Shown: positions 1,541 through 63,187 of the stretch, one piece after another
How the letters are laid out: the number at the start of each line of letters is the position of its first letter
Position numbering within the stretch: position 1 is the first letter of the stretch
NCBI GenBank assembly: GCA_965199495.1
Contig: CBDASK010000003.1
Location: forward strand, 3,808,001-3,872,000
Length of the DNA: 64,000 nt
Reading direction: 5' to 3'
Source: Abditibacterium sp.
GTDB lineage: Bacteria; Armatimonadota; Abditibacteriia; Abditibacteriales; Abditibacteriaceae
The notes under the pieces: generated by a model
Told to the model about the DNA's origin: nothing
Database searches by the model: none
The model's input: the letters and a program-made list of their open reading frames with translations, nothing else
Program-made: the position numbers and the translations under genes

Positions 1541-2335
1541 CTATCGGAAAACTTGCGCGACCCCTTTTGTTAGCGCGCCTATTTCTCCAAAATCGCGCGC
1601 GCTTTTCTCGTCGGAAATCGAACCTATCGAGCGCACACCCGCCGCGCCCGAAACGATAAAGGCTTCATCGGCTTCCCATAAATTTGGCATTTGCCACTGC
1701 CCTTCGCATACGGTAAATCGCTCGATGACAATCGCGCGCCCGACGCCGCGCAGACAGCCACTGGCCAAGCTGGGCGTGTAAAGCACGCCGCGCTTCGCCC
1801 AAAAAATCGAGGCGCGCGCGGTTTCGCAAACCAATTCGCTTTCGGTCAGTAACAAAGCCTCGTCGAATCCGCGCGTGCGCGCCGCGTCCCACGCGAAAAG
1901 ATAGGGCAAATACGAAGTCGTCTTCACGCCCGCCAACGGCGCGTTTGCCGCCACGCGAAACGGCGAAACTTCCAGTCGCGCGGGCGTTAGCGCGGGCGCG
2001 GGCGCCGTTTGTGCGACGATGCTCCAATCGGCGCTGCTTTGCGCGTTCCAGCGCCCATCGCCGCGCTTTGTTCCGGTAACGCGCGCCAGACCGTTTTTCA
2101 GTTCGAGCCGCGCCACAAGCTCGTCCAAACCCGCGCGCAAGTGGCCCGCGTCAAACGGCCACTCGACGCGAGCAGCCACGGCGTCGCGCTCCAAACGCGC
2201 GGCGTGCTGCTCCCAAAATTTCGGCTGGCCATCGCGAATCGCAATTGTCGTAAAAACGCCCCAGCCCACTGAGGCGCCCGCATTGGTCGCGTCCAGTTGG
2301 GCCATCGCAGTTAATTGGCCGTTGAACCAAATCAT
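1541..2335 (-). CDS. Class IV PLP-dependent aminotransferase / aminodeoxychorismate lyase family
   Basis: MIWFNG start, GxGVFTT, HxxRL, KTTSY catalytic Lys, GFDEALL, CLRGVGR, ADEAF motifs. Confidence 0.85.
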   Translation of the reverse strand: MIWFNGQLTAMAQLDATNAGASVGWGVFTTIAIRDGQPKFWEQHAARLERDAVAARVEWPFDAGHLRAGLDELVARLELKNGLARVTGTKRGDGRWNAQSSADWSIVAQTAPAPALTPARLEVSPFRVAANAPLAGVKTTSYLPYLFAWDAARTRGFDEALLLTESELVCETARASIFWAKRGVLYTPSLASGCLRGVGRAIVIERFTVCEGQWQMPNLWEADEAFIVSGAAGVRSIGSISDEKSARDFGEIGALTKGVAQVFR

Positions 2336-2364
2336 GTTCGCAAGTGTAAGGCTAAACTGATTTC

Positions 2365-3054
2365 ATGCTCGCGCGCTCGTCCGTTCTCATCACTGGCGGC
2401 ACCGGCGCGTTGGGGAGCGCCATCGTCGCCGATTTGTGCGCGGCCAATTATGCCGTCGTCGCCAACTATTATCACGATGAAACGCGCGCGCGCGAACTCG
2501 AAACGCGAACCGGTTGCCAACTCGCGCGCGCCGACGTGCGCGACGAAAACGCGGTGCAAACGCTTTTCGAGACGCACAAATTCGACGCGATTATTCACGC
2601 GGCGGGCCACAACCGCGATGCGCTTTTGCTGCGTACTTCCGCAACTCTATGGCGCGAGCAATTGCGCGCCAATCTCGATGCGGCGTTTCTCATCACGCGC
2701 GCCGCGCTGCAATTTTTGCCCGACGGCGGACGATTGATTTTGATTTCGTCGCGCGTGGGCGAGCGCGGCTTTGCTGGCCAAAGCGCCTACGCCGCCAGCA
2801 AAGGCGCGGTTACAGGTTTGATGCGCGCCGCCGCCGCCGAAGGTCGCGCGCGCGAATTGAAAATCAACGCGGTTTGTCCGGGCTTCGCGCCTTCGATGTT
2901 GTCGCGCGATTTAAACGAAAAAATTCGCGAATACCGCGCATCGGAAAATTTAATTTCCGGTGCCGATGCCGCGCAATCGTTGGCGGCGGCGTGCCGGTGG
3001 CTGCTCACGGCGCGCGTGAGCGGACAAGTGATTCGGGCGGATTGTCGGGTTTAG
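2365..3054 (+). CDS. Short-chain dehydrogenase/reductase (FabG-like)
   Basis: TGGTGALG Rossmann motif, YAASK catalytic motif, INAVCPG. Confidence 0.85.
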   Translation: MLARSSVLITGGTGALGSAIVADLCAANYAVVANYYHDETRARELETRTGCQLARADVRDENAVQTLFETHKFDAIIHAAGHNRDALLLRTSATLWREQLRANLDAAFLITRAALQFLPDGGRLILISSRVGERGFAGQSAYAASKGAVTGLMRAAAAEGRARELKINAVCPGFAPSMLSRDLNEKIREYRASENLISGADAAQSLAAACRWLLTARVSGQVIRADCRV

Positions 3055-3089
3055 AGGCTATTCAAATAGGAAATGAAAGTGTGCAGAAA

Positions 3090-3163
3090 GCGGGGCTGAC
3101 GCACCCTTCCAATCAGCATGCTTTGGAGGAACTTTGCTGATTGGAAGAGGGCGTCAGCCCCGC
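3090..3163. repeat. REP-like inverted repeat, GCGGGGCTGACGC family (copy 1)
   Basis: GCGGGGCTGACGC..CTTCCAATCAGCA / TGCTGATTGGAAG..GCGTCAGCCCCGC; second copy at 59029-59106. Confidence 0.85.
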
Positions 3164-3199
3164 AGGAAGACAGGAGCCGCTTCCCGATTTGGATAGCAT

Positions 3200-3952
3200 C
3201 TAATCCCGCAATCCCGGCCATTCGCGCCACAAATCGGTCAAACACTCCAGCCGATTTTCGTCGTGTTGCGGATGCTTGACGCGAAAGAACGTCGCGAAAC
3301 GCGGGCGCGCCGCGTAGTTACCAGCCACGCCGTGCAGCAATTGGTAATGCGCGATAACCGCGTCGCCCGCTTTGGCCTGAATTTGCAACGGCTCGCCCGC
3401 GTCAATGGGCGGTGTGCGGCCTTCATCGGTAATAATGTGCGTGCCATGCTCGCGGAAATAATCCTGCATTTTGAGGTGCGAACCGGGCCACACGGTAAAA
3501 TTGCCCGCGTTGTCGGCGTTGATGTCGGTCAGGAAAACGCCGATTAAAGCGCTAAACGAAGCGATTGCGCCTTTAGGAACGCCATTATGGGGCGAGTGAA
3601 CGCCGTCAATATGCGGCCCCGGCGGGTGGATTGGCGCGCCCAATTCGCGCGGAAAGCGCAACGCGAGTTGAGCCGATTTCGCGGGCGCGACGTTTTCGGC
3701 GCCCATCAAATCCTGTAAAACCGCGCGCAAATCCGACGCGTTAAACAGATCGGTAATCACCGATTGCCTTTGCAAATCGGGGAAAAACGATTGCTGTTGC
3801 CATGTGCGCAATTCTTCGGTGGGCACGCCCTGGCCCAGACGGTGATAAATGGCGTGCAGCGCGGTTTCGAGTTGGTCTGGCGCGATGGCGCCGGGCAAAT
3901 GAACGAATCCGTCGTGCTTAAAATCGGCTTTTTGAGTTGGGGTAAGGGGCAT
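3200..3952 (-). CDS. Phytanoyl-CoA dioxygenase (PhyH) family 2OG-Fe(II) oxygenase
   Basis: FKHDGFVHL, HID facial-triad motif, GNFTVWPGSH, AGDAVIAHYQLLHG; ATG at 3952 chosen as start. Confidence 0.85.
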   Translation of the reverse strand: MPLTPTQKADFKHDGFVHLPGAIAPDQLETALHAIYHRLGQGVPTEELRTWQQQSFFPDLQRQSVITDLFNASDLRAVLQDLMGAENVAPAKSAQLALRFPRELGAPIHPPGPHIDGVHSPHNGVPKGAIASFSALIGVFLTDINADNAGNFTVWPGSHLKMQDYFREHGTHIITDEGRTPPIDAGEPLQIQAKAGDAVIAHYQLLHGVAGNYAARPRFATFFRVKHPQHDENRLECLTDLWREWPGLRD

Positions 3953-4063
3953 TGGGGCGGCAAAGTGCGCGTTGTGTGCCGCAATATTTAAAATATCGAA
4001 ATTGTCGCGCCTCCCACTCCCGCGTTTTCTGTCAAAATTTAATAGTAGCACTTTCCCGTTCTT

Positions 4064-6571
4064 ATGCCTTCCGCCCGTTCCCGCGCTTCCGATTCCGATT
4101 CCGATTCCAAACCCAAGACCAAACGTGCGCCTCGTCGGCGCACGTCTCAGCCGAAAATTCCCGCTTTGCCGGTGATTCCCCTGCGCGGCATGGTCGCGTT
4201 TCCCTCGATGGTTCTGCCGCTTTTCATTGGTCGCGAATCTTCCATCAACGCCATTGAAACCAGCGCCAATGGCGACAAAATGTTGTTTTTGGTGACCCAG
4301 CGCGACGAAGAAAACGAAGACCCAAAACCCGAAGATTTATACGAGACCGGCATCGTCGCCGAGATTATGCAGTGGGTGAAACTGCCCGATGGCAACCTGC
4401 GCGTTATCGTCGAGGGCCGCGCGCGCGCGGTCGCCCAGAAATATACCGAGGGCGATTATTTGGCCGCCACAGTCGAGCCAGTCGAAGAAGCCACGGCGCC
4501 CGATTCGGCGCAGAGCGAGGCGTTGTCGCGCCGTCTGCGCGACGATTTCGAGAGCGCACTCAACCTGTCCAAGCGCATTCCGCCCGAAGCGATGAGCAAT
4601 ATCAGCGACGCCGATAACATCGGCGCGCTCGCCGATTTGGTGGTTTCGTATCTGGAAACCAGTGCGGAAGATCGCCAAAACGTTTTGGAACAGCGCGACG
4701 TTTTGCAGCGCGCGCAAACCGTTGTCGAACTGTTGCATCGCGAACTGCAAGTTCTGGAAATTGACCGCGAAATCGAAGCGCAGGTCAAAGAGGGCGTCGG
4801 CGATAACCAGCGCGAGTATTTTCTGCGCGAACGGTTGCGCACGATTCAGGACAAATTGAGCGAAACCGACCCAAACTACAAAGAGGGCGAAGGTTTGCGC
4901 GAACGCGTCGAGGCGGCGGGCATGCCCGCAGAAGCCAACGAAAAAGCGCTTTACGAACTGGAGCGTTTGGAGCGCATGCCGCCGATTGCGCCCGAAGTCG
5001 GCACGATTCGCAACTATATCGAATTGATGTGCGATCTGCCGTGGGACAACGCCTCGGAAGATATTCTGGATTTGAAACACGCGGCGGCGATTTTGGACGA
5101 AGACCATTACGCGCTGGGCAAAATCAAAGATCGGATTCTCGAATTCCTGGCAGTGCGCCAGTTGAACCCGACTTCGCGCGGGCCGATTTTGTGTTTTATG
5201 GGGCCGCCCGGCGTCGGCAAAACTTCGATTGGGAAATCGATCGCGCGCAGTCTGGGCCGCGAATTCATTCGCGTTTCGGTTGGCGGCATTCACGACGAAG
5301 CCGAAGTGCGCGGCCATCGCCGCACTTATATCGGCTCGATGCCGGGGCGTATTATTTCGGCGCTGCGCCGCGTGAAAGTCAAAAATCCGGTTTTCATGCT
5401 GGACGAAATTGACAAACTGGCCAGCGATTATCGCGGCGATCCTTCTTCCGCCCTGCTGGAAGCGCTCGACCCCGAACAGAATAACGCGTTCGCCGATCAT
5501 TATTTGGAAGTGCCGTTCGATCTGTCGCAGGTCATGTTTATCGCCACGGGCAATATGCTTGAACCGATTCAACCGGCTTTGCGCGACCGCATGGAAGTTT
5601 TGCAGTTTCCCGGTTATACCGATTCCGAAAAATTGCAGATCGCGACCGGATTTTTGATTCCCAAACAGGTCAAAGAAAACGGCATTTCCGATAAGAAAAT
5701 CGCTTTTGAAGACGACGGCATTCGCGAAGTGATTCGCGGTTACACGCGTGAGGCGGGGGTGCGCAATCTGGAGCGCGAACTGGGCAATATCGCGCGCAAA
5801 GTCGCGCGTCAGGTCGCCGAACATGAAAGCGGACGTTTCAAGAAAGTCAAAGTCAGCGATGCCAAAGTCAAAGAGTTTTTGGGGCCGCGCCATTTCAGCC
5901 GTGACCTGATTTTGCAAAAGGACGAGGTCGGCGTGGCTCAAGGTTTGGCGTGGACGGAAATGGGCGGCGAAGTTTTGCCCATCGAAGTTTTGCTCATTCC
6001 CGGCGCGGGCAACGCCAAGCAAACCGGCAATTTGGGCGCGGTCATGAAAGAATCGTGCGAAACCGCGATGACCTACGCGCGCGCGCACGCTTCGGAGTTG
6101 GGCATTCCGTCGGATTTCGCGGCGCGCCACGATGCGCACATTCACGTTCCATCGGGCGCCGTGCCCAAAGACGGGCCAAGTGCGGGCGTGGCGATTACGG
6201 TCGCGTTAGTCTCAGCGATGGCAGGTCGGGCGGCGCGCAAGGAAGTCGCGATGACCGGCGAAATTTCTTTGCGCGGCCACGTTTTGCCCATCGGTGGTCT
6301 GAAAGAAAAAGTCCTGGCCGCGCACCGCGTCGGCGCGACCGAAGTGATTTTGCCCGCCGAAAACGAGCGCGATTTGGAAGAACTCGCGCCCGAAGTTCGC
6401 GAAGCCTTAACTTTTCATGCCGTCGAACGGTTGGACGAGGCGATCAAATTGGCGCTGCATCCGATTAACGAAACCCGCGGAGTCGGCATTGATGTGGTCG
6501 AACCGTTATCGGACGCCGACAAAGAATTGGTCGAAATTTCGGAAAACGAATTGGAGCCACCGGTGATGTAA
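4064..6571 (+). CDS. lon: ATP-dependent Lon protease
   Basis: LPVIPLR N-domain, GPPGVGKTS Walker A, LDEIDK Walker B, PKDGPSAG catalytic Ser, TGEISLRG. Confidence 0.97.
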   Translation: MPSARSRASDSDSDSKPKTKRAPRRRTSQPKIPALPVIPLRGMVAFPSMVLPLFIGRESSINAIETSANGDKMLFLVTQRDEENEDPKPEDLYETGIVAEIMQWVKLPDGNLRVIVEGRARAVAQKYTEGDYLAATVEPVEEATAPDSAQSEALSRRLRDDFESALNLSKRIPPEAMSNISDADNIGALADLVVSYLETSAEDRQNVLEQRDVLQRAQTVVELLHRELQVLEIDREIEAQVKEGVGDNQREYFLRERLRTIQDKLSETDPNYKEGEGLRERVEAAGMPAEANEKALYELERLERMPPIAPEVGTIRNYIELMCDLPWDNASEDILDLKHAAAILDEDHYALGKIKDRILEFLAVRQLNPTSRGPILCFMGPPGVGKTSIGKSIARSLGREFIRVSVGGIHDEAEVRGHRRTYIGSMPGRIISALRRVKVKNPVFMLDEIDKLASDYRGDPSSALLEALDPEQNNAFADHYLEVPFDLSQVMFIATGNMLEPIQPALRDRMEVLQFPGYTDSEKLQIATGFLIPKQVKENGISDKKIAFEDDGIREVIRGYTREAGVRNLERELGNIARKVARQVAEHESGRFKKVKVSDAKVKEFLGPRHFSRDLILQKDEVGVAQGLAWTEMGGEVLPIEVLLIPGAGNAKQTGNLGAVMKESCETAMTYARAHASELGIPSDFAARHDAHIHVPSGAVPKDGPSAGVAITVALVSAMAGRAARKEVAMTGEISLRGHVLPIGGLKEKVLAAHRVGATEVILPAENERDLEELAPEVREALTFHAVERLDEAIKLALHPINETRGVGIDVVEPLSDADKELVEISENELEPPVM

Positions 6572-6601
6572 TCATCGTTTTGCACCCGTCATTTATAATT
6601 A

Positions 6602-7463
6602 ACCAATGGTGCGGGTGTGCGAAGGAGTCATCGGGACGGCAAACTTTGAGGTTGACCAAAACACCAAAGAGCCTCCCCGATGACCACAATTGATTTTACC
6701 ATTGCCCTGTTTTGCCGTGTCGATGATGGGTTATTCGACCAAGAGAAACACCCGTTTTCCCTGCTTCATCCCAGCGAAGTTGTGACACTGGCGATGCTGC
6801 AAGTGCTGCGCGGCGAAGGCAATCGCGCTTTTGATCGTTGGGTGCGGCGCGAGTTAGGCCCGCTCTTTCCCCGGCTGCCCGAACGCACACGCCTGTTCCG
6901 TTTGTTCGTCACTTATCAAGCACTCTGTCAACGTTTTCTGGCCACAGCCACGCTCTTTGGCGTGGTGGACTCCTACGGCATCGAGCTTGTGCATCCCTGG
7001 CGCGAGCGGCACACTCAGCGCGAGATTGCGCGCAAAGGCAAGAGTCTGCACCGTTGGATTGTTGGGGCCAAAATCTGCGTATTGACCGATAATCTGGGGC
7101 GCATCGTGGGCTTTCGCGTGGATGGGGCGGGCGTGCATGACAGCGCCTTTCACCCGCTCATCGAGTCGGTCAAAGAGCAGATGATCGTGTTTAGCGACGG
7201 AGGCTTCCACGCCCGTGGGGGCGACCCAGAAAACCTGAAGATCTGCCGCAAGGGGCAGTGGAACGACCGTATGATCGTCGAGACGCTCTTCTCTTTGTTC
7301 ACAACCGTCTTGAGGATGAAGAAGCTCGCCCATCGGTTGCTTGAACCGCTCAAAGCCCGATTGGCTTATACCTGCGCCGTCTGTAATATCTGCTTCGATT
7401 GGGACGGAAAAACCGAACTGCGTTTGGCCCAGTTTAAGCTCTAAAGACACCCGCACCATTGGT
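6602..7463 (+). mobile_element. IS982-family-like insertion sequence (862 bp)
   Basis: 17-bp terminal inverted repeats ACCAATGGTGCGGGTGT / ACACCCGCACCATTGGT; TAATTA direct repeat at 6596-6601 and 7464-7469; single DDE transposase. Confidence 0.85.
6680..7444 (+). CDS. DDE transposase (IS982-like)
   Basis: FCRVDD, LHPSEVVTL, FPRLPERTRLFR, VDS, SDGGF, RMIVETLFS; fills the IS. Confidence 0.85.
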   Translation: MTTIDFTIALFCRVDDGLFDQEKHPFSLLHPSEVVTLAMLQVLRGEGNRAFDRWVRRELGPLFPRLPERTRLFRLFVTYQALCQRFLATATLFGVVDSYGIELVHPWRERHTQREIARKGKSLHRWIVGAKICVLTDNLGRIVGFRVDGAGVHDSAFHPLIESVKEQMIVFSDGGFHARGGDPENLKICRKGQWNDRMIVETLFSLFTTVLRMKKLAHRLLEPLKARLAYTCAVCNICFDWDGKTELRLAQFKL

Positions 7464-7557
7464 TAATTAGACCTCTTGAATAAATCAAAATTGAGAGTCA
7501 ATACACGCCGACCAGCGCCGAATTCATTCGTGCGGCCAAATAGTTAAAATTTAATCC

Positions 7558-8157
7558 GTGCGTAAAATTGGTTTAATGGGCGGCACCTTCGACCCGATTC
7601 ACTTCGGCCATCTTTTCATCGCCGAGGCCGCGCGTGTGGCGTGCGACCTGGACGAAGTGATATTTTTTCCCAACAATTTGCCCGCGCACGCGCAGGGAAA
7701 AAGCGTGAATGCGAACGCGGAAACGCGATGGGAATTGATGTGTCTGGGCATCGCCGACAACCCGCATTTTCGCGGTTCACGCATTGAAATTGAGCGGCCC
7801 GGTAAATCGTTCGCGTTCGATACGATTGGACAATTTCAACGCGATTTGGGCGCCGATGTCGAACTCTATTTCATCATCGGCGCCGATTCGATGCGCGATT
7901 TGCTTACCTGGTATCGCGGCGCGGAATTGTTTGGGTTGTGTCGCTTCGTGGCAGCCACGCGGCCCGGCTTCGATGGTGCGGCGGCGATTGCGGCATTATC
8001 GGATTGGCAAAAATCGCGCGTTATCGCGCTCGAAGTGCCGGGTTTGCATATTTCTTCGACCGACTTGCGCGCGCGCGTGGCTGCGGGCGAAGCGGTGCGA
8101 TATTTGACACCTGAGCCTGTGCGCGAGCGTCTGGAAGAGTTAAACCCTTACCGATAG
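7558..8157 (+). CDS. nadD: Nicotinate-nucleotide adenylyltransferase
   Basis: GGTFDPIHFGH, YFIIGADS, ISSTDLR. Confidence 0.96.
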   Translation: MRKIGLMGGTFDPIHFGHLFIAEAARVACDLDEVIFFPNNLPAHAQGKSVNANAETRWELMCLGIADNPHFRGSRIEIERPGKSFAFDTIGQFQRDLGADVELYFIIGADSMRDLLTWYRGAELFGLCRFVAATRPGFDGAAAIAALSDWQKSRVIALEVPGLHISSTDLRARVAAGEAVRYLTPEPVRERLEELNPYR

Positions 8158-8241
8158 TTTGAAGGTCGCGCGCCCGAAAGACGGGGCGCCGGGAGTTATA
8201 GAGTTATAGAAATCACTTACCCCATCATTGAGGTCGCCGAT

Positions 8242-8628
8242 TTGGAGACGACCGAAGCCGGGCGCAAAACCGCCCTGCTGTGCCAAAGCGCCAACGAATT
8301 GAAGGCGCTCGATATTACCGTTTTGGACGTGCGCGGCCAAACCATCATCGCCGATTATTTCGTGTTGTGTTCGGGCACATCCTCGACGCATATCCAATCC
8401 ATCGCCGAACACGCGCGCGATGAAATGCGCGAAAACGGCTACCGCGCGCGCCCCGAAGGCGTGCCCGCGTCGTTCTGGGTCGTGCTCGATTATGGCGACG
8501 CCATTTTGCACGTTCTCAACGGAGACACGCGCGAATTCTACGATTTGGAGCGCTTGTGGGCCGAAGCGAAAATCGCGGGGTGGCCAGACTCCGAAACTTC
8601 TGTTATAATTGAATCCGAAAATGTTTGA
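8242..8628 (+). CDS. rsfS: Ribosome silencing factor (Iojap)
   Basis: KALDITVLDV, ADYFVLCSG, WVVLDYGD, REFYDLERLW; follows nadD. Confidence 0.95.
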   Translation: METTEAGRKTALLCQSANELKALDITVLDVRGQTIIADYFVLCSGTSSTHIQSIAEHARDEMRENGYRARPEGVPASFWVVLDYGDAILHVLNGDTREFYDLERLWAEAKIAGWPDSETSVIIESENV

Positions 8629-8916
8629 ACGCCTCCCCGTGAACGTCGCCAACCGCTCGCTTTGCGCCAGTTATTCTGCGCAGACGACGGTGCGTCTCAT
8701 GCCGATGCCGATTTGCTCTTTACGAGATAAATCGAGCATTTTGGCGTGGGATTTTGGCGGCGCTCATGCGGGACGGGTGCGCGGCAGGTATGGATTTCGA
8801 CATGGAAGGCCTTGTTCTTCAAGGCTCTCCTGCTTTTCTTCCACGCCCGGCCCGCTCGCCCAGTAACGCATTTTCAGTTGCGTCCACTGCGCACGCGCCG
8901 GGCGTTTTTGTTTTCC

Positions 8917-9025
8917 AGGGACAAGTAGCAAGGAGCAGGGAACAAGCGGCATGTCAAATTAGCAATTGTTGATGCGAACGCTCTTTCTCTATTTCCTTGT
9001 TCCCTGTCCCGTGATCCTTGTCCCT
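8917..9025. repeat. Inverted element with heptamer-tandem arms (AGGGACA-type), copy A
   Basis: AGGGACA AGTAGCA AGGAGCA GGGAACA AG ... CTTGTTCCCTGTCCCGTGATCCTTGTCCCT. Confidence 0.8.
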
Positions 9026-9033
9026 TCACTGCC

Positions 9034-10612: not shown

Positions 10613-10636
10613 GGCGCGCGATGCAGCCACAGCGCC

Positions 10637-10727: not shown

Positions 10728-10741
10728 TTTCAGGTATTAAA

Positions 10742-12222: not shown

Positions 12223-12224
12223 GG

Positions 12225-54892: not shown

Positions 54893-54898
54893 AACACA

Positions 54899-56317: not shown

Positions 56318-56332
56318 GTTTGCGAAGATATT

Positions 56333-56449
56333 ATGGATGAAAATGGGAAAATATTTTTACTGACTTTGATTGGAACTTTGGTAACGCTTGTATTTATCTG
56401 CGTTCTTATTTTCTTCGTGTCCTTGATTCTTAGCCATAGCGTGCTTTAG
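56333..56449 (+). CDS. Putative small single-pass membrane protein (38 aa)
   Basis: MDENGKIFLLTLIGTLVTLVFICVLIFFVSLILSHSVL* nearly fills the hslU-gmd gap; below the ORF-track length cutoff. Confidence 0.5.
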   Translation: MDENGKIFLLTLIGTLVTLVFICVLIFFVSLILSHSVL

Positions 56450-56463
56450 AGATTAGAAAATTT

Positions 56464-57468
56464 ATGCCCAACGCACTTATTACCGGAATTAACGGGCAAG
56501 ACGGCGCCTACTTAGCGCATTTGCTCATCGGGCGCGGCTATCGCGTTTGGGGCGCGATGCGTTATGAGTCGTGGAGTGCAGCCACGCCGTCGCGGGCGCT
56601 GACAGCTTTGGGCGTCGCCGACCAAATCGCGCTGTTGCCGGTGGATTTCGAGAGCGTGCCTTCGCTGGCGTGCGCGATTTCGGCGGCGCAGCCCGACGAG
56701 ATTTATAATCTGGCGGCGCAAAGTTCGGTCGCGGCCTCGTTCCAAGAGCCGACGCAAACCGGCGAAGTCACGGCCTTAGGCGTGGCGCGCTTGCTGGAAG
56801 CGGCTCGCTCGATCAAGCCCGACGCGAAATTTTATCAAGCGGGCAGTTCCGAAATGTTCGGCATCGCGCGCGAAACGCCCCAAGTCGAAACCACGCCGTT
56901 TTATCCGCGCTCGCCCTATGGCGTGGCCAAGGTTTATGCGCATTGGATGACGGTGAATTCGCGCGAGGCTTACGACGTTTTCGCGTGCAACGGCATTTTG
57001 TTCAACCACGAATCGCCCCTGCGCCCGGAAAAGTTCGTGACGCGCAAAATCTGCGCGGGCGTCGCGCGCATCAAAGCCGGATTGGACAAAGAATTGGTTT
57101 TGGGCAATTTGGACGTGTCGCGCGATTGGGGTTTCGCGGGCGATTATGTTGCCGCGATGTTCGCCATGATGCAAGCCACAGCGCCCGACGATTACATTAT
57201 TGCGACGGGCGAAGTGCAGACGCTGCGCAATTTCGTGGTCGGCGCGTTCGATTGTGTTGATCTGGATTGGGAAAAATATGTGCGCATTGACCCGGCGTTT
57301 TTCCGCCCGACCGAAGTCAACATCGTCGTCGGTGACCCGACCAAGGCGCGCGAAAAATTGGGTTGGGAGCCGTCAATGAATTTTGCCGAACTCATCGAGT
57401 TTTTGATGGAAGCCGAAATGCACCGCGTCAACGGTCGGCCCGATTTGGTGCGTTATTATCCCTCGTAG
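56464..57468 (+). CDS. gmd: GDP-mannose 4,6-dehydratase
   Basis: ALITGINGQDGAYL, YNLAAQS, SSEMFG, PRSPYGVAK, FNHESP, FVTRKI, RDWG. Confidence 0.95.
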   Translation: MPNALITGINGQDGAYLAHLLIGRGYRVWGAMRYESWSAATPSRALTALGVADQIALLPVDFESVPSLACAISAAQPDEIYNLAAQSSVAASFQEPTQTGEVTALGVARLLEAARSIKPDAKFYQAGSSEMFGIARETPQVETTPFYPRSPYGVAKVYAHWMTVNSREAYDVFACNGILFNHESPLRPEKFVTRKICAGVARIKAGLDKELVLGNLDVSRDWGFAGDYVAAMFAMMQATAPDDYIIATGEVQTLRNFVVGAFDCVDLDWEKYVRIDPAFFRPTEVNIVVGDPTKAREKLGWEPSMNFAELIEFLMEAEMHRVNGRPDLVRYYPS

Positions 57469-57551
57469 GGGCGGGGTTCTCCCGCCCGATTACAAAATTC
57501 CGATAAGTCGCTGACGGCGATACCATTTGGGCGGGAGAACCCCGCCCCTAC
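57465..57551. repeat. GTAG-type REP doublet
   Basis: GTAGGGGCGGGGTTCTCCCGCCC ... GGGCGGGAGAACCCCGCCCCTAC; supplies the gmd stop codon TAG. Confidence 0.9.
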
Positions 57552-57596
57552 AATTGACGTGGCCGCGACATTTGTAACTTCTGCGCGCAAATTTTA

Positions 57597-58808
57597 ATGT
57601 TCGATTCTCTTCCCATTCATCCCGCCGATGTGCGCGCAGCGCAAACGCGCATCGCGGGCGGCGTGAAACGCACGCCGTGTCGCCGGACGAATTTAGCGGG
57701 TTTAGACCTGTTTCTCAAGTTCGATAATCGCCAGGAAACCCATTCGTTCAAAGAGCGGGGCGCGCTCAACAAACTGCTGTGCCTGAGCGACGACGAAAAA
57801 GCGCGCGGCGTTATCACGGCTTCGGCGGGCAATCATGCGCAGGCGGTGGCTTGTCACGCCGGGCGGTTGGGCATTACGGCGCTGATCGCGATGCCGGTTG
57901 GCACGCCCTTCAACAAAATCTTGCGCACGCGCTCTTATGGCGCTGATGTGGTTTTGCATGGCGATAATTACGACGAAGCGCAAACTCACGCGCGCACGTT
58001 GGCGCAGCAGACCGGCAAAGTTTGGGTCGCGGCGTTCGATGATCCGCTCGTGATGGCCGGGCAGGGCACGCTCGGTTTAGAAATGCTCGAAGATTGGCCT
58101 GACCTCGATTGTTTGGTGATTCCCATCGGCGGCGGCGGGCTGATTGCGGGTTGCGCGGTCGCGGCCAAATCGGTCAATCCCGACATCGAAATCATCGGCG
58201 TGCAGTCGGCGCTTTATCCGGCGATGAAAGAAGTCATCGAAGGCCGCTCGCTGCCCCAACGGCGCGGACGATCCATCGCCGAAGGCATCGCGGTCAAGGA
58301 ACCGGGTGTTTTAACGCGAGAGGTCGTGGCGGCGCTGGTTTCGCGCATCGAATTGGTGGACGAACATCAAATCGAGGACGCGATCAATCTGTTGCTCGAA
58401 GAAGAAAAAACCCTCGCCGAAGGCGCGGGCGCGGCGGGCGTGGCTTATGTTTTGGCGCATTCCGATGAGTTCAGGGGCAAGAAAGTCGGACTGCCGATTT
58501 GTGGCGGCAACCTCGATATGCGGATGCTGGCGACCTGTTTAATGCGCGGATTGGCGCGCGGTGGCCGCATCGCCGCCCTCACGATTTTGCTGGACGATGT
58601 GCCGGGCGGGTTGGCGCGCAGCACCGAAATCATCGCGCGCGAAGGCGGCAACGTCATCGAAGTCCAGCATCAGCGCCAGTTCGGCATCACCGGCTCGCAG
58701 GTCGAACTCAATATCACTGTTGAAACGCAAGACAAAGCGCATTTGCAAGATATTTTGGGCGCCCTGCGCGCGCAAGACTTGAACGTAATTTCGCATCACG
58801 CGGCGTGA
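57597..58808 (+). CDS. Threonine ammonia-lyase with C-terminal ACT domain
   Basis: SFKERGA PLP lysine, SAGNHAQ, GQGT, GGGGLI, GGNLD, single ACT domain. Confidence 0.93.
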   Translation: MFDSLPIHPADVRAAQTRIAGGVKRTPCRRTNLAGLDLFLKFDNRQETHSFKERGALNKLLCLSDDEKARGVITASAGNHAQAVACHAGRLGITALIAMPVGTPFNKILRTRSYGADVVLHGDNYDEAQTHARTLAQQTGKVWVAAFDDPLVMAGQGTLGLEMLEDWPDLDCLVIPIGGGGLIAGCAVAAKSVNPDIEIIGVQSALYPAMKEVIEGRSLPQRRGRSIAEGIAVKEPGVLTREVVAALVSRIELVDEHQIEDAINLLLEEEKTLAEGAGAAGVAYVLAHSDEFRGKKVGLPICGGNLDMRMLATCLMRGLARGGRIAALTILLDDVPGGLARSTEIIAREGGNVIEVQHQRQFGITGSQVELNITVETQDKAHLQDILGALRAQDLNVISHHAA

Positions 58809-58834
58809 TTTGTAAATTTAGGGGAACAACTTTG

Positions 58835-58965
58835 CCACAAAAACACAGAAATCACAAAGGGCACAAAAATTCAAAAATACTTAGTCGAACTTTCTTCATT
58901 GAAATAATGTTCTTCAAAACCTTTGGCATTTTTTTGTGCCCTTTGTGATTTCTGTGTTTTTGTGG
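58835..58965. repeat. Inverted element with 9-nt-periodic CACA(A/G)A arms, copy C
   Basis: CCACAAAAACACAGAAATCACAAAGGGCACAAAAA ... TTTTTGTGCCCTTTGTGATTTCTGTGTTTTTGTGG. Confidence 0.9.
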
Positions 58966-59028
58966 TCAAAAATCGTTCGCCTAAATCCGCGACACTATAG
59001 CCCTTCTCGCTCAGTAAGCTACAATGTC

Positions 59029-59106
59029 CAGCGGGGCTGACGCCTCCTTCCAATCGATAAAGTTCCTAAAAAGCCCGTTGATTGGAAGGAGGCGTCAGCC
59101 CCGCTG
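59029..59106. repeat. REP-like inverted repeat, GCGGGGCTGACGC family (copy 2)
   Basis: CAGCGGGGCTGACGCCTCCTTCCAATC ... GATTGGAAGGAGGCGTCAGCCCCGCTG. Confidence 0.9.
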
Positions 59107-59148
59107 TTGTAGTCTCTACCCTGTTAAGGGCTATATCTTCCATCCCCT

Positions 59149-60666
59149 ATGAAAAAGCCCCTCAACGTTTTGCTTATCACCAGCGACCAGCAACATTGGA
59201 CGGCGTTGGGCGCGGTCAACGACAAAATTAAAACGCCCAATCTCGACCGTTTATGCACCCAAGGCACACGTTTCACCCGCGCTTATTGTCCCAACCCAAC
59301 TTGCACGCCGACGCGCGCTTCGATCCTCACCGGGCAATACCCTTCGACGCACGGCGCGTGGAGTCTGGGCACCAAACTGAGCGAAGATGCTCTCACCGTC
59401 GGCGACATTTTTCGCGATAACGGTTACCAGACTTTTCTCATCGGCAAAGCGCATTTTCAGCCGCTCGCCAGCGCGCCCGATCAAATGTCGGTCGAGTGTC
59501 AGCCGACGCTACGCGATTTAGATTTCTGGCGCGCGTTCAACGACACTCACACGCCGTGGTATGGTTTCGATCACGTCGAACTGGCGCGCAATCACGCCGA
59601 CGAAGCGCACGCCGGGCAACATTACGCGATTTGGCTCGAAGAACACGGCTTGACAAACTGGCGCGACTATTTCAGCGACCCGGAAACCGGCCAGCCCCAA
59701 CGTTATGGCGCGTGGGATTTGCCCGCCGAACTGCATTACACAACGTGGACGGCAGAGCGCACGATTGCTTCAATTGAAGCAGCCACGGCGGCGGGTAAGC
59801 CGTTCTTTGGCTGGGCGAGTTTTCACGATCCGCATCTGCCTTATCTTGTGCCCAGCCCGTGGTCAGAAATGTATAATCCCGCCGACATGGAGCCGGGAAC
59901 ATTGCTCGAAAACGAGATGGAATTGCTGCCCGAACATTTCCGCCTGACGCAACAAGAAAACCCCGATTATTCGGCGTATCGCGAAACTCGATTCGAGAAT
60001 CACGGTTTTCATACTCATCTGCAAGACGCCGAAAAAGGCCAGCGCGACATGGCTCTTTATTATGGCATGGTCAGTTTCATGGACGAGCAAATCGGGCGCA
60101 TTTTGGATGCGTTAGACGAGCAGGGCATCGCCGAGAATACGCTCCTTGTTTTCACGACCGATCACGGACATTTTCTGGGACAGCACGGTTTGTGGTTCAA
60201 AGGCGCGTTTCACTACGAGGATGTTTTGCGGTTGCCGTTCATCGCCCGTTGGCCCAATCACATTGCGGCGGGCGCTCAATGCGACGCGTTGCAAAGTCTG
60301 GTAGATTTGGCGCCGACGTTTCTGGCCGCGTGCGAATTGCCGGTTCCCGGTTCGATGCAGGGCGTGAACCAGTTGCCGGTTTGGGAGGGCGAATCCGAAA
60401 GTGCGCGCGACGAAGTCATCGTCGAATTTCGCCATCAGCCGACGCGTGTTCACCTGCGCACTCTCGTGACGGAGCGTTATAAATTGACGATTTATCGCGA
60501 GCAAAATTATGGCGAACTGTTCGATTTGCACGCCGATCCCGACGAACGCCGCAACCTGTGGGACGACGTGGCTGCATCGGGCGTCAAGGCCGAAATGTTT
60601 CAAAAGTTAGCTTACGCCGAAATCCGCCGCGAACCGACGACACTTTCGCGGATCGCGGGCGCGTGA
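59149..60666 (+). CDS. Formylglycine-dependent sulfatase
   Basis: NVLLITSDQ, CTPTRASILTG (CxPxR), GKAH, DPHLP, TDHG. Confidence 0.95.
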   Translation: MKKPLNVLLITSDQQHWTALGAVNDKIKTPNLDRLCTQGTRFTRAYCPNPTCTPTRASILTGQYPSTHGAWSLGTKLSEDALTVGDIFRDNGYQTFLIGKAHFQPLASAPDQMSVECQPTLRDLDFWRAFNDTHTPWYGFDHVELARNHADEAHAGQHYAIWLEEHGLTNWRDYFSDPETGQPQRYGAWDLPAELHYTTWTAERTIASIEAATAAGKPFFGWASFHDPHLPYLVPSPWSEMYNPADMEPGTLLENEMELLPEHFRLTQQENPDYSAYRETRFENHGFHTHLQDAEKGQRDMALYYGMVSFMDEQIGRILDALDEQGIAENTLLVFTTDHGHFLGQHGLWFKGAFHYEDVLRLPFIARWPNHIAAGAQCDALQSLVDLAPTFLAACELPVPGSMQGVNQLPVWEGESESARDEVIVEFRHQPTRVHLRTLVTERYKLTIYREQNYGELFDLHADPDERRNLWDDVAASGVKAEMFQKLAYAEIRREPTTLSRIAGA

Positions 60667-60723
60667 GAACGTGTTCTGTATCGTTTTGCGCAGTTGAGCG
60701 ATAGTCACCTAATTAGCTTTCCT

Positions 60724-60860
60724 CTTTGTCATTCTGAGCGAAGAGAGGGACGAACGAAGTCGAAGAATCCAACGGTTGCGTATTAACTTTGCTTTTGCCT
60801 CGCCCAGAGTCATGGATTCTTCGACTTCGTTCGTCCCTCTCTTCGCTCAGAATGACAAAG
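60724..60860. repeat. Perfect 48-bp-arm palindromic element (TGTCATTCTGAGCG type)
   Basis: 60724-60771 is the exact reverse complement of 60813-60860. Confidence 0.92.
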
Positions 60861-60903
60861 TGGGAGAAATAATTGATTCTAATCGCGTAAAATAGTGAAT
60901 AAT

Positions 60904-61539
60904 TTAACGCCCGAAAAATCGGTTTTCCAGCGCAATTGCCAGCGCGTGATAGATTGGCAGATGGCGCTCCTGAATTTCGTGCGTCACATCGCAGGGCACG
61001 CAAATCGTAATGTCGCAGAGCGCTTTCATCGCGCCGCCGCTGTGGCCAGTTAGACCGATAGTTTGGAGGCCTTTAACTTTGGCGACGCGCAGCGCGTTCA
61101 GCACATTCGTCGAGTTGCCCGAAGTCGTGATGGCCAGCAAAACGTCGCCACTTTGGCCGTAGCCCCAGACCTGCTGAGCGAACATCGCATCGGGCGCGCC
61201 ATCATTAGCTACGGCGGTCGAGAGCGAATTGTGGCCGGTGAGGGCAATTGCGGGCAAGGCGCCTTCCAATTGGGCAGCCACGGCGGCGCCTTCGGCGCCA
61301 AAATAGTCGGCAAAACGCGCGCGCTCGGCGCTCGAAAGCGCGCGCTTGAGAATGAAACCCTTCATCAATTCGGCGACCAGATGTTCGCTGTCGGCGGCGC
61401 TGCCGCCGTTGCCGCACACCAAAAGTTTGCTGCCGCTCGCGAAACTGCGCTCTAACATCGCGCACGCGTTTTCGATGTCGGCGTGACACGGCTGGAGATC
61501 GGGATAATTGCGCACGAGGGCGGAAAAAACGGGATTCAT
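60904..61539 (-). CDS. gmhA: D-sedoheptulose 7-phosphate isomerase (SIS domain)
   Basis: CGNGGSAADSEH, TAVAND, TSGNS, IQERHL. Confidence 0.88.
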   Translation of the reverse strand: MNPVFSALVRNYPDLQPCHADIENACAMLERSFASGSKLLVCGNGGSAADSEHLVAELMKGFILKRALSSAERARFADYFGAEGAAVAAQLEGALPAIALTGHNSLSTAVANDGAPDAMFAQQVWGYGQSGDVLLAITTSGNSTNVLNALRVAKVKGLQTIGLTGHSGGAMKALCDITICVPCDVTHEIQERHLPIYHALAIALENRFFGR

Positions 61540-61640
61540 AAATTGCGGATGTCGCGAGTTTAACAAGCGCTCGCGCGCTGATTTTTTCGCTTCGCCCGAT
61601 GGAGGCGGCGCGGTTAAACTTGTAAGTTAGTTAAATTGCC

Positions 61641-62111
61641 ATGAATTCCGCTATTTCTTCTTCGCCACTTGCGCTCGACCGCGTGCGCGCGCAGTTCGAC
61701 TCGTTGCTACGCGCAACTGGCATTTCGCCCGACGCGCCCGATTTGAACGCGACATGGAACGCTTTTACTCAGTTCGCGCGGGTGGAAGTCGCTTGCGACG
61801 AAGAAAGTTTGTTTTTCGAGTGCGGCCCGTCTTCGACCGATGAAAGCCGCTTTTACGTGAATTTCACGCGCACGTTTTTCGGGCGCGACGCGGGCAATCA
61901 CTTTTGGTCGAGCGAATTGAACTGCGATTTTCTGTTTGAAAACACCGAAGATTTGGAAGTGTTGGGCGCGACCATTGAAGCCGAGGAATTCGACGAAAAC
62001 CCCAACGAGCGCGCCCGGTTTTTCGAGCAGGTCGCCAATCAGCAAAAGTTGTGGGATGCGTTGCAGGGCCGCCAAAGTCTGGCGACGACGATTTATTTTG
62101 GCGAATCGTAA
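61641..62111 (+). CDS. Hypothetical protein
   Basis: 156-aa acidic ORF with host-like codon usage. Confidence 0.65.
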   Translation: MNSAISSSPLALDRVRAQFDSLLRATGISPDAPDLNATWNAFTQFARVEVACDEESLFFECGPSSTDESRFYVNFTRTFFGRDAGNHFWSSELNCDFLFENTEDLEVLGATIEAEEFDENPNERARFFEQVANQQKLWDALQGRQSLATTIYFGES

Positions 62112-62132
62112 AAAGAAAATTAGAAATTTGCC

Positions 62133-62161
62133 TTGACTGAATGGGCCGTGCGCGTTATCCT
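62133..62161 (+). promoter_or_regulatory. sigma70-like promoter of the tRNA pair
   Basis: TTGACT-17 nt-TATCCT preceded by an A-rich UP-like tract. Confidence 0.7.
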
Positions 62162-62196
62162 TTTTCTTCGCGTTGAGAAACGCATAGCGTTCGAGT

Positions 62197-62267
62197 GGCT
62201 CTGTGGCCGAGGGGTTAGGCACCGGTCTGCAAAACCGTTTACACCGGTTCGACTCCGGTCGGAGCCT
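62197..62267 (+). tRNA. tRNA-Cys(GCA)
   Basis: Acceptor GGCTCTG/CGGAGCC, anticodon loop CTGCAAA, T-arm GGTTCGACTCC; CCA not encoded. Confidence 0.95.
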
Positions 62268-62295
62268 TTTTGGAAATCCAAAAGGTTTCTAGTTT

Positions 62296-62367
62296 TGGGG
62301 AATGGCCAAATGGTAAGGCACCTGTCTCTGGATCAGGCGATTCTAGGTTCGAGTCCTAGTTCCCCAG
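62296..62367 (+). tRNA. tRNA-Gln(CTG)
   Basis: Acceptor TGGGGAA/TTCCCCA (U1-A72 typical of Gln), anticodon loop CTCTGGA, T-arm GGTTCGAGTCC; CCA not encoded. Confidence 0.93.
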
Positions 62368-62380
62368 TTTTTATAATCTA

Positions 62381-62416
62381 AAAAACGCCCGCGATTTAAT
62401 TATCGCGGGCGTTTTT
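62381..62416. terminator. Bidirectional terminator
   Basis: AAAAACGCCCGCGAT..ATCGCGGGCGTTTTT between the tRNAs and the ankyrin gene. Confidence 0.85.
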
Positions 62417-63187
62417 ATTTGTATGTTTTTTGCTTAACGCGTTTTGAATTAAGCGAATAAAAGCTGGATTGCCGCCAGCTTTGGCCCATTTGAGCGCCGT
62501 GTTGCCGTTATCCGTGCGGGCGCGAACATCGGCGCCGCGTGCGAGCAGCATTTTGGCGTTGAGTAACGCATCTTCTTGATTATAAAATGAGAGTTGCGCG
62601 GCGTAAATAAGCGCGGTGTCACCCAATTTAGTGGCGACATTAACTTTGGCGCCGTGAGCCAGCAAAATTTTGACGCATTCAGGATTTGAGCAAAGCCCCT
62701 CGCAGGGATAAGCCACGGCGCGCATCAGAGCAGTTTCTCCGGCGTGATTTTGAAAGTTGATGCTGGAGCCTTTGGCAATTAACAATCGCACGGCTTCAGG
62801 ACTGCTGCCCGCCGCTTCCATGAGCGCCGTGTTGCCGTTGGCATCGGCCAGATTGACGTTGGGTTTGTAATTCAAGAACAGTTTCAATAAATCAGTTGAA
62901 TCCACGCCCGTCGTTTCGTCTTCCGGGCCGCCAATAAAACTGACGTTAATCAAAGCCGTGCTGCCTTCCGTATCGCGAGCGTTGACTGAGGCGCCGCGTT
63001 TGAGCAGCGACTTGGCGCGCTCCACATCGTTGTTGTTAATGGCCGCAAACAGCGCGTTATCGAGAACCTTTTGCGTCGGCGTGGCTGCAACTGGCGTCGC
63101 GACAACTGCAACGGACAAAAGCAACGCCACAATGGGCCAGAAAGCGAAAAATTTCTTTCTATTCATAATTTCAATTGATTTTATCAT
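62396..63187 (-). CDS. Secreted ankyrin-repeat protein
   Basis: Repeated GxTALxxA..LLxxGAxVN units; N-terminal signal peptide. Confidence 0.92.
   Translation of the reverse strand: MIKSIEIMNRKKFFAFWPIVALLLSVAVVATPVAATPTQKVLDNALFAAINNNDVERAKSLLKRGASVNARDTEGSTALINVSFIGGPEDETTGVDSTDLLKLFLNYKPNVNLADANGNTALMEAAGSSPEAVRLLIAKGSSINFQNHAGETALMRAVAYPCEGLCSNPECVKILLAHGAKVNVATKLGDTALIYAAQLSFYNQEDALLNAKMLLARGADVRARTDNGNTALKWAKAGGNPAFIRLIQNALSKKHTNKNARDN

What the first reader, a model, noticed from the sequence alone, without database searches (positions are those of the whole stretch)
2172..63088. Strongly over-represented, strand-neutral 9-mer GCAGCCACG: candidate DNA-uptake-sequence-like genomic signal
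Seen in sequence: by hand I count 32 exact GCAGCCAC/GTGGCTGC 8-mers. 30 extend to GCAGCCACG, 16 on + and 14 on -. Example 8-mer starts: 2172, 7951, 8077, 15690, 19094, 20858, 23380, 25894, 27520, 27997, 30190, 33186, 34221, 37331, 37401, 38691, 39923, 40328, 41055, 42375, 46630, 50837, 51677, 51692, 52622, 56578, 59779, 60568, 61274, 63081. About 1 copy is expected from roughly 58% GC, so the excess is about 30-fold, or one copy per ~2 kb. There are many 1-mismatch variants (ACAGCCACG, CCAGCCACG, GTAGCCACG), and the extended consensus is (AT)GCAGCCACGNCG. Most copies sit inside core genes and often use Ala codons GCA/GCT, although these genes otherwise favour GCG/GCC. I saw no exact copy in the two ISs, the low-GC acyltransferase, the low-GC lipoprotein or the 17-kb gene. 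Established knowledge: Neisseria DUS and Pasteurellaceae USS are 9-12-bp non-palindromic motifs, strand-neutral, enriched in core genes, depleted in foreign DNA and found as inverted pairs. Chi and KOPS are strand-polarised, and HIP1 is palindromic. Inference: this is an undescribed self-DNA uptake signal, or a binding code for a genome-wide DNA-binding protein, in this lineage.
Basis: partly seen in the sequence, partly recalled or inferred. Interest (0 to 1): 0.88.

Follow-up and report, generated by a model that had tools for sequence, protein, structure and literature searches.

The report
Strand-tiled DNA word in Abditibacterium
A small group of Abditibacterium-type bacteria has written one short, non-palindromic DNA word into its genes thousands of times, spaced out separately along each strand, which resembles the self-tags used in DNA uptake but points to an unknown reader that works on one strand at a time.

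Summary
Real. GCAGCCACG occurs 30 times in the window (0.86 expected) and 1,783 times in the genome; 1,626 coding copies against 98 (synonymous shuffle) or 259 (dicodon null). Full word: (w)gcAGCCACGbCG, with an all-or-none core AGCCAC. It is not replichore-polarised (53%, KOPS 91%), is depleted in mobile DNA, conserved at silent sites, and enriched in only 3 of 401 phylum genomes, one Abditibacterium clade. New: copies in the same orientation avoid each other over about 1 kb (39 of 218 close pairs, 109 expected), while opposite-orientation copies do not. An orientation-blind uptake receptor does not predict this, though a small Neisseria DUS control shows a weaker version. The genome has the competence genes. 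The clade lacks the AddAB that its genus relatives keep, and seven other AddAB-less family members carry different hyper-abundant words. Best reading (about 45%): a transformation-driven self-DNA signal read per strand. No reader was identified; a DNA2-like helicase-nuclease and a type IIG methylase failed as candidates. I found no paper with this motif. The scan's notes hold similar words in other phyla and a strand-tiled word in crAss phages, not this one.

The parts
2172..2180 (+). GCAGCCACG copy, in coding DNA
2997..3004 (-). 8-mer GCAGCCAC without the final G
7951..7959 (+). GCAGCCACG copy, in nadD
8076..8084 (-). GCAGCCACG copy, in nadD, opposite orientation 125 bp from the previous copy
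10623..10630 (+). 8-mer GCAGCCAC without the final G
15690..15698 (+). GCAGCCACG copy, in coding DNA
19094..19102 (+). GCAGCCACG copy, in secA
20858..20866 (+). GCAGCCACG copy, in secA
23379..23387 (-). GCAGCCACG copy, in secA
25893..25901 (-). GCAGCCACG copy, in coding DNA
27519..27527 (-). GCAGCCACG copy, intergenic by my gene calls
27997..28005 (+). GCAGCCACG copy, in the lactate dehydrogenase gene
30190..30198 (+). GCAGCCACG copy, in the glucuronate isomerase gene
33185..33193 (-). GCAGCCACG copy, in smc
34208..34228 (.). Close inverted pair inside smc: AGCCACG core at 34208 (+) and full 9-mer at 34220-34228 (-)
37331..37339 (+). GCAGCCACG copy, in a flavoprotein oxidoreductase gene
37401..37409 (+). 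GCAGCCACG copy 70 bp from the previous one in the same orientation: a rare exception to the same-strand exclusion
38690..38698 (-). GCAGCCACG copy, just outside my gene call (inside the longer ORF 37611-38834)
39923..39931 (+). GCAGCCACG copy, in an ABC permease gene
40327..40335 (-). GCAGCCACG copy, in the ABC permease gene
41055..41063 (+). GCAGCCACG copy, in the ABC permease gene
42374..42382 (-). GCAGCCACG copy, in coding DNA
46629..46637 (-). GCAGCCACG copy, in the catalase gene
50836..50844 (-). GCAGCCACG copy, in an SDR oxidoreductase gene
51677..51699 (.). Close inverted pair of two full 9-mers (51677 +, 51691 -) between divergent genes, so not a terminator
52622..52630 (+). GCAGCCACG copy, in an AraC-family regulator gene
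56578..56586 (+). GCAGCCACG copy, in gmd
59779..59787 (+). GCAGCCACG copy, in a sulfatase gene
60567..60575 (-). GCAGCCACG copy, in the sulfatase gene
61274..61282 (+). GCAGCCACG copy, in the phosphoheptose isomerase gene
63080..63088 (-). GCAGCCACG copy, in an ankyrin-repeat gene
1..64000 (.). 65 copies of the 7-base AGCCACG in all; the window is a typical sample of a chromosome-wide pattern

Best explanation
The word is a clade-specific self-DNA signal kept by molecular drive during natural transformation, like DUS/USS and probably HIP1, but the step that reads it acts on one strand. SHOWN: the word is created in place by substitutions that override codon bias and sit at poorly conserved residues, is held at silent sites, and copies on one strand exclude each other symmetrically over about 1 kb while ignoring copies on the other strand. 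INFERRED: a donor strand that carries at least one copy is favoured for import through ComEC, protection or recombination; a second copy on the same strand within one tract length (half-recovery near 0.65 kb) adds little and decays, whereas a copy on the other strand licenses a different molecule and is kept. Allele transfer then fixes new copies regardless of replichore.
For: Genome count 1,783 against 130 (order-4) and 496 (order-5 Markov); 1,626 coding copies against 98 and 259. Silent-site conservation against G011: 287 of 326 versus 0.68 codon-matched background; amino-acid identity to motif-less relatives at 9-mer codons 116 of 253 (0.46) versus 0.66, the pattern reported for USS/DUS (PMC2817400, abstract). 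CAGCCACG per kb: chromosome 0.65, prophage 0.35, island 0.21, small contigs 0.08-0.09. Leading-strand share 0.535 (9-mer), 0.507 (7-mer), against 0.911 for GGGCAGGG. Same-orientation pairs at 40-600 bp: 39 of 218, permutation mean 109, minimum 85 in 2,000; 180 of 718 against 359 for the 8-mer; only 5 of 584 abundant 7-mers show this and all are pieces of the word; it holds across gene borders, is symmetric 5'/3' and recurs in G011 (6 same, 19 opposite) and G004 (2, 12) samples. A toy model reproduces it only with per-strand licensing. pilB, pilT, pilC, pilD, pilins, comEA, comEC, comF, dprA, comM, yraN present. Only one strand enters the cytoplasm in transformation (PMC7811141, passages). DUS spacing matches conversion tracts of 1.1-1.7 kb (PMC2397512, passages). 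Single DUS in a 787-kb Neisseria-type sample show the same asymmetry weakly: 15 same against 27.7 expected, 38 opposite against 28.8 at 61-300 bp.
Against: No uptake or transformation data and no reader. comEC is in 27 of 27 family genomes and the pilus operon in all 13 relatives sampled, with or without a word, so competence genes do not explain the distribution. [quoted passage not shown] The DUS control is weak (p 0.07 for the 10-mer, 0.46 with one mismatch, 0.0003 for a 7-base core; mixed species). The toy model shows only what per-strand licensing would give; intracellular repair would give the same. An earlier, unchecked scan note reports strand tiling in crAss phages, which do not take up DNA.
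Confidence: 0.45

Rival explanations
1. Intracellular strand-specific recombination or repair signal, doing a Chi-like job in a lineage without AddAB/RecBCD. Random breaks (not fork collapse) are repaired from another chromosome copy; the strand carrying the word is protected or loaded with RecA, which converts word-less alleles and needs copies on both strands equally.
For: Per-strand exclusion. An AddA-like second UvrD-family gene is found in 10 of 10 motif-less genus members (three as contig fragments) and an AddB-like long PD-(D/E)XK gene in 9 of 10, and neither in G000, G004, G011. Across the family, 0 of 11 genomes with such genes and 10 of 16 without carry a hyper-abundant word in what I sampled. 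In cyanobacteria recBCD is reported in marine picocyanobacteria and lacking in several model strains (PMC5101192, passages), while HIP1 is broadly found outside the picocyanobacteria (PMC4390886, passages).
Against: No RecB/AddA/AdnB-type helicase in the genome (only PcrA hit by PF00580). No 5'/3' asymmetry of shadowing as a scanning enzyme would give (8 site classes, none with p below 0.1). The one clade-enriched helicase-nuclease (DNA2-like) has lost its N-terminal half in G011 and is intact in motif-less G016. Six AddAB-less genomes show no word. Kin are not independent: only about two or three origins.
Confidence: 0.2
2. The core AGCCAC is an asymmetric methyltransferase site marked on one strand; a methyl reader (mismatch repair or transformation, as proposed for HIP1) drives the flanks and the spacing.
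For: Any change in the six core bases removes enrichment (0.1-2.5 fold against 55 fold) while flanks are graded, like CGATCG inside HIP1; Elhai's model predicts saturation near one site per kb (PMC4390886, section 3.4); methylated HIP1 raises transformation (10.1101/2024.09.10.611283, abstract). Relatives' palindromes share an AGTACT core with lineage-specific flanks. A type IIG methylase is shared by the three clade genomes at 73-84% identity.
Against: That IIG gene has two in-frame stops in G000, the genome with most copies, has a 49% homologue in motif-less G003 and none in G014 or G020. A second IIG gene is intact in G000 and G011 but has no close match in G004; two others are not conserved. 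The m5C methylase of G000 lies in a motif-free low-GC stretch and G014 has none. No C-to-T excess among variants. By my reasoning Elhai's ratchet with an asymmetric site would suppress opposite-, not same-orientation neighbours. Methylase survey was incomplete.
Confidence: 0.13
3. A classical DUS/USS: a minor pilin binds the word in duplex DNA at the cell surface, blind to orientation.
For: All general DUS hallmarks; critical inner core with weaker flanks as in USS (PMC3458573, passages) and DUS dialects (PMC3630211, abstract); fast-diverging pilin-like genes in the pilus operon (41-59% identity to G004 against 85-93% for pilB, pilT, pilC, pilD); G017 carries its word mostly as intergenic inverted pairs like Neisseria terminators.
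Against: Orientation-blind licensing depletes both pair classes in the toy model, but opposite-orientation pairs are at expectation. Only 26 of 130 close inverted pairs are outside coding DNA. No ComP/ComZ-like match for the tip proteins.
Confidence: 0.12
4. Binding site of an abundant chromosome-organising protein, or the residue of a REP/RAYT or Ssn repeat system, or a mutational artefact.
For: Uniform along the chromosome. G004 also has 1,184 copies of a longer, mostly intergenic REP-like form GACACCAGCCACGTC containing the same core.
Against: No origin or terminus restriction; the dip at 4.21-4.29 Mb is a prophage. No 10.5-bp phasing. No hairpin covariation. 91% coding, with the same consensus inside and outside genes. 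Y1 transposases occur in 25 of 27 genomes irrespective of words and none was found in G017; the Ssn-like gene of G000 is flanked by a different repeat.
Confidence: 0.08

Closest known systems
DNA uptake sequences: DUS of Neisseriaceae, USS of Pasteurellaceae
   Same: Non-palindromic, about one per 1-2.6 kb, strand-neutral, written into genes at poorly conserved residues, depleted in foreign DNA, critical inner core with weaker flanks, clade-specific words, close inverted pairs, competence genes present.
   Different: Different sequence and phylum; 91% coding (against 35-65% in PMC2817400's table, outline); inverted pairs mostly not terminators; strong same-strand-only exclusion to about 1.3 kb, seen only weakly in my DUS sample; no receptor known; no uptake assay.
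HIP1 and alternate HIPs of cyanobacteria
   Same: About one core per kb, all-or-none 6-base core with flanks, recoding, possible link to transformation; other members of this family carry true palindromes (TCGAGTACTCGA, TGCAAGTACTTGCA), and the G020 and G022 palindromes show short-range exclusion.
   Different: Not palindromic; no conserved cognate methylase found; no cytosine-decay signature.
Chi (RecBCD/AddAB) and KOPS (FtsK)
   Same: Short asymmetric word read with orientation; same-orientation redundancy is what a strand reader gives.
   Different: Not polarised by replichore although KOPS-type GGGCAGGG is (204 to 20); no RecB/AddA-type helicase; shadowing is symmetric.
REP/RAYT and NTS/SsnA repeat systems
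   Same: Single-strand readers exist in these systems; G004 has a REP-like long form with the same core.
   Different: Coding rather than extragenic, no hairpin, no cognate flanked enzyme gene.

Membership tests
DUS/USS | Hundreds to thousands of copies of a 9-12 bp non-palindromic word, far above null models | tested here: met
DUS/USS | No replichore orientation bias | tested here: met
   0.507-0.535 leading against 0.911 for GGGCAGGG; the 9-mer's small skew is significant (p 0.004)
DUS/USS | Depleted in foreign DNA; at poorly conserved residues; conserved at silent sites | tested here: met
DUS/USS | Inverted pairs serving as terminators | tested here: not met
   pairs are about ten-fold enriched at offsets 11-16 but 104 of 130 are in coding DNA
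DUS/USS | Type IV pilus competence machinery | tested here: met
   also present in motif-less relatives
DUS/USS | Orientation-blind recognition of duplex DNA | tested here: inconclusive
   spacing is strand-specific, against it; a DUS sample shows a weak similar trend
DUS/USS | Word-dependent DNA uptake and a cognate receptor (ComP type) | not testable with these tools
   tip pilin-like proteins have no informative match
HIP1-like | Palindromic word | tested here: not met
HIP1-like | Cognate methyltransferase conserved with the word | tested here: inconclusive
   four amino-methylases and the m5C family tested, none intact in all three clade genomes; others not tested
HIP1-like | Methylation of the site | not testable with these tools
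   only assembled contigs were available
Chi | Leading-strand polarisation | tested here: not met
Chi | RecBCD, AddAB or AdnAB in the genome | tested here: not met
   PF00580 finds only PcrA in G000, G004, G011 (95, 92, 87% complete)
KOPS / matS / SlmA- or Noc-type sites | Polarity to dif, or restriction to or exclusion from the terminus region | tested here: not met
REP/RAYT or NTS/Ssn | Extragenic hairpin repeat flanking a cognate HUH or GIY-YIG gene | tested here: not met

The most novel reading that the evidence does not exclude
An undescribed single-strand 'passport': a sequence read on the incoming or resected strand by a factor that took over the licensing role of AddAB-Chi after AddAB was lost. 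Abditibacteriaceae have swapped the word several times (asymmetric AGCCAC core in this clade; AGTACT palindromes or paired GTACGGTCGA elsewhere), palindromes being the form that serves both strands at once. This would tie DUS, HIP1 and Chi to one strand-licensing principle and give an orientation test that can be run on any genome.
Probability: 0.25. Interest if true: 0.93.

Novelty: new variant of a known kind. Interest (0 to 1): 0.82.

Why it matters
Sequence-tagged DNA uptake is established in two proteobacterial families, and the function of HIP1 has been open for three decades. This is a non-palindromic case in another phylum, with natural contrasts inside one genus (word present or absent, AddAB absent or present) and several different words inside one family. 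Because the word is asymmetric it reveals what palindromes hide: the spacing constraint acts per strand. That makes a concrete assay (same versus opposite orientation of two copies; single-stranded donors) and a simple genome statistic that can be applied to DUS, USS, Chi and other hyper-abundant words.

Tried and rejected
Codon or amino-acid artefact: rejected. Chi/KOPS polarity: rejected. Terminus exclusion: the dip near the terminus is a prophage. RNA-level cause of the exclusion: it holds across gene borders and for antisense copies. Hairpin structure: no covariation, folding energy equal to flank-swapped controls. Helical phasing: none. Polar scanning: no 5'/3' asymmetry. DNA2-like helicase-nuclease as reader: 5 of 27 genomes, broken in G011, intact in motif-less G016 where 200 kb show no word. 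RAYT and Ssn-like genes: no link. Methylases: beta-class family in 27 of 27 genomes, uninformative; m5C not conserved; four IIG/MmeI-like genes tested against five relatives. Pilus operon content: no gene tracks word presence across 13 relatives. Viral contigs: 11 hits for the inverted pair, none with motif density near the host's. Sequencing runs: contigs only, no methylation or usable polymorphism. An orientation-resolved control on E. coli Chi was not obtained, so whether Chi shows the same spacing is open. An apparent excess of divergent pairs at 800-1000 bp was not convincing in finer bins. Literature: no paper held the four literal words; searches on Abditibacterium/uptake sequence, HIP1, RAYT, DNA2-like, orientation and spacing of uptake sequences, Chi, single-stranded DUS and Abditibacteriota competence showed none describing it; subscription papers and all supplements were not seen and may bear on USS/DUS spacing by orientation.

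Full report
Observation. The window lies at 3.81-3.87 Mb of the 4.72-Mb contig of G000. The closest ObgE matches (93% and 90%) are records labelled Abditibacteriales and Abditibacterium sp., so the lineage is taken as Abditibacterium. Genome-wide there are 1,783 copies (919 +, 864 -), the top 9-mer against order-4 (130) and order-5 (496) Markov expectations. Gene calls are my own (4,043 genes). Coding copies number 1,626 against 98 after synonymous shuffling within genes (10 shuffles) and 259 under a codon-pair model that keeps the proteins (5 runs); density is 0.40 per kb in genes and 0.22 between them; VAA, AVA, AAT, TAT and ATA are among the twelve most over-represented tripeptides.

Anatomy. 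The full word is (w)gcAGCCACGbCG. In that context the consensus is 55-fold above the shuffle; any change at the six bases AGCCAC drops it to 0.1-2.5 fold, the following G to 2.2-2.5 fold, while the other flanks keep 1-26 fold or more. The consensus is the same inside and outside genes, with no hairpin covariation. Copies arise in place: 1 of 43 sites against G011 and 6 of 73 against outgroups touch a gap. Silent positions in the core are conserved against G011 (287 of 326; background 0.68) but not against G004 (112 of 200; 0.59), and motif codons are less conserved in motif-less relatives (116 of 253; 0.66 expected) (113, 85 and 194 ortholog pairs from sampled regions).

Distribution. Replichores are clear from silent-site skew and from GGGCAGGG (a KOPS-type word, label recalled), which switches at 1.95 and 4.34 Mb. 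The word is 53.5% (9-mer), 51.6% (8-mer), 50.7% (7-mer) on the leading strand against 91% for GGGCAGGG. It is even along the chromosome and depleted in a prophage of host-like GC, an island and two small contigs. CAGCCACGBCG is enriched in 3 of 401 phylum genomes: G000 2,113, G011 1,776, G004 720; the highest other count is 134, with a reversed-word control of 131. The three form one branch on a ComEC tree (support 100, quick tree, 26 of 27 rows, G023 left out as too short).

The new feature. Pairs of copies in the same orientation are strongly depleted at short range, pairs in opposite orientation are not. For AGCCACG, same-orientation counts per 100 bp are 65, 93, 106, 101, 118 against 218 expected, recovering by about 1.2 kb; opposite counts are 247, 202, 189, 230, 219. 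For the 9-mer the ratio is 0.15 within 200 bp. Keeping positions and permuting orientation gives 109 same-orientation pairs; 39 of 218 are observed. Only 5 of 584 abundant 7-mers fall below 0.8 and all are pieces of the word. The effect holds within genes (sense 24 against 157, antisense 89 against 263) and across gene borders (39 against 75; 9 against 27), is symmetric on both sides of strong sites, has half-recovery near 0.65 kb and no helical phasing, and recurs in G011 and G004 samples. In the window alone it is 10 against 18. Close inverted pairs are about ten-fold enriched at offsets 11, 12, 14 and 15, 16, 104 of 130 in coding DNA. A toy model gives depletion of both classes for orientation-blind licensing and of the same class only for per-strand licensing; it illustrates the logic and is not evidence for transformation as such. 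Against over-reading: single Neisseria-type DUS in 787 kb of metagenome contigs show a weaker, shorter version (15 against 27.7 same, 38 against 28.8 opposite at 61-300 bp; p 0.07), so the feature does not exclude a DUS-type system.

Relatives. De novo counts on 11-260 kb samples and whole-genome pattern counts show other words in the family: GAGTACTC-centred palindromes in G020, G022, G024, G042 (2,650-4,077 sites), AAGTACTT-centred ones in G014 and G018, and GTACGGTCGA, mostly as intergenic inverted pairs, in G017. The G020 and G022 palindromes are depleted within 250 bp (6 against 27; 3 against 12); G014 less clearly (7 against 11). No such word showed in samples of the other 17 genomes, some only 11-30 kb. 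G004 adds 1,184 copies of a longer intergenic form with the same core. An AddA-like gene is in 10 of 10 motif-less genus members and G015, an AddB-like gene in 9 of 10 and G015, and neither in any of the 10 word-bearing genomes; six genomes lack both AddAB and a word. The names AddA/AddB are my inference from domains and adjacency. With two or three independent origins and incomplete genomes this is a lead only.

Reader candidates. The competence set is present but comEC is universal in the family and the pilus operon is shared; its tip pilin-like genes diverge fast and have no informative match. A DNA2-like helicase-nuclease (family described in PMC7430649, passages) failed. A clade-shared type IIG methylase is interrupted by two stops in G000. 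m5C methylases, RAYTs and an Ssn-like gene show no link.

Mechanism. Overriding codon choice and residues at thousands of sites needs a drive of the kind known for DUS/USS; only one strand is imported in transformation; and the exclusion range matches reported conversion tracts. I therefore favour a transformation-linked signal read per strand (0.45), then an intracellular strand-specific repair signal replacing AddAB-Chi (0.20), a one-strand methyl mark (0.13), classical orientation-blind DUS (0.12) and others (0.08). The statistics are shown; every step of the mechanism is inferred.

Papers seen: passages of PMC5861425, PMC2397512, PMC5101192, PMC11893778, PMC7430649, PMC3458573, PMC1939737; passages and one section of PMC4390886 and PMC7811141; abstract and Discussion of PMC13756078; abstracts of PMC2817400, PMC3630211, PMC2346458 and 10.1101/2024.09.10.611283. 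No supplements. No held paper contains the literal words. Earlier scan notes describe hyper-abundant palindromes in other phyla and a strand-tiled word in crAss phages; they are unchecked and are not used as support.

Verdict. New variant of a known kind; interest 0.82.

Noticed in passing
G020, G022, G024, G042 (whole genomes; L136-L140, L434, L435): Hyper-abundant HIP1-like palindrome centred on GAGTACTC (TCGAGTACTCGA in G020), 2,650-4,077 sites per genome, with short-range exclusion; not seen elsewhere among 121 phylum genomes except G014.
   Followed up: partly
G014 (L141-L145), G018 (L431, L432), L007: Palindromes TGCAAGTACTTGCA and CAAAGTACTTTG sharing the AGTACT core; 3,241 AGTACT in G014.
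   Followed up: partly
G017 (L349-L358, L181, L182): Word GTACGGTCGA about once per kb, mostly as intergenic inverted pairs that look like terminators, some single copies in genes: the most DUS-like arrangement in the family.
   Followed up: partly
G004 (L359-L365): 1,184 copies of a REP-like intergenic element GACACCAGCCACGTC that contains the same core as the window's word.
   Followed up: partly
window 18599-25243: secA ORF of 2,214 aa, more than twice the usual length, matching SecA models in 4-6 separate stretches; large insertions (inteins or extra domains) likely.
   Followed up: no
L396:7365-11630 (G000 C3 4111365-4115630): 1,421-aa DNA2-like Fe-S nuclease plus SF1B helicase, in 5 of 27 family genomes, broken in G011; 106 relatives, mostly unnamed.
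   Followed up: partly
L474 and L468 (G000 C3 1750576-1757699): PLD-SNF2 helicase plus type IIG methylase pair after the ATP synthase genes; the methylase has two in-frame stops and in-frame repeat insertions in G000 and is intact in G004.
   Followed up: partly
L447 (G000 C3 867671-880963): Uncharacterised pilin-like genes of 290-1,330 aa in the pilus operon; the largest is duplicated in G000 and G004; no Pfam or PDB match.
   Followed up: partly
G000 C3, genome-wide: About 160 copies of a GTAG-type REP (GTAGAGACACCGA...) and 131 strand-polarised copies of a repeat ending ATTGAAAT that looks like a CRISPR repeat.
   Followed up: no
G000 C3 4212000-4294000 and 1140000-1250000: A prophage of host-like GC and an island, both depleted in the word; contigs C1 and C2 look like a plasmid and a phage.
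   Followed up: partly
window 42789-42893 (-), 62197-62367 (+): SAM-I/IV riboswitch upstream of a 152-aa gene of no known family; two tRNA genes.
   Followed up: no
L201-L278: Single Neisseria-type DUS show mild same-orientation depletion within 300 bp; worth testing on complete genomes.
   Followed up: partly
G016, G019, G000, G006 (whole genomes): AGTACT is almost absent (1, 5, 19 and 13 sites), the opposite of its excess in sister genera; suggests restriction-site avoidance.
   Followed up: no
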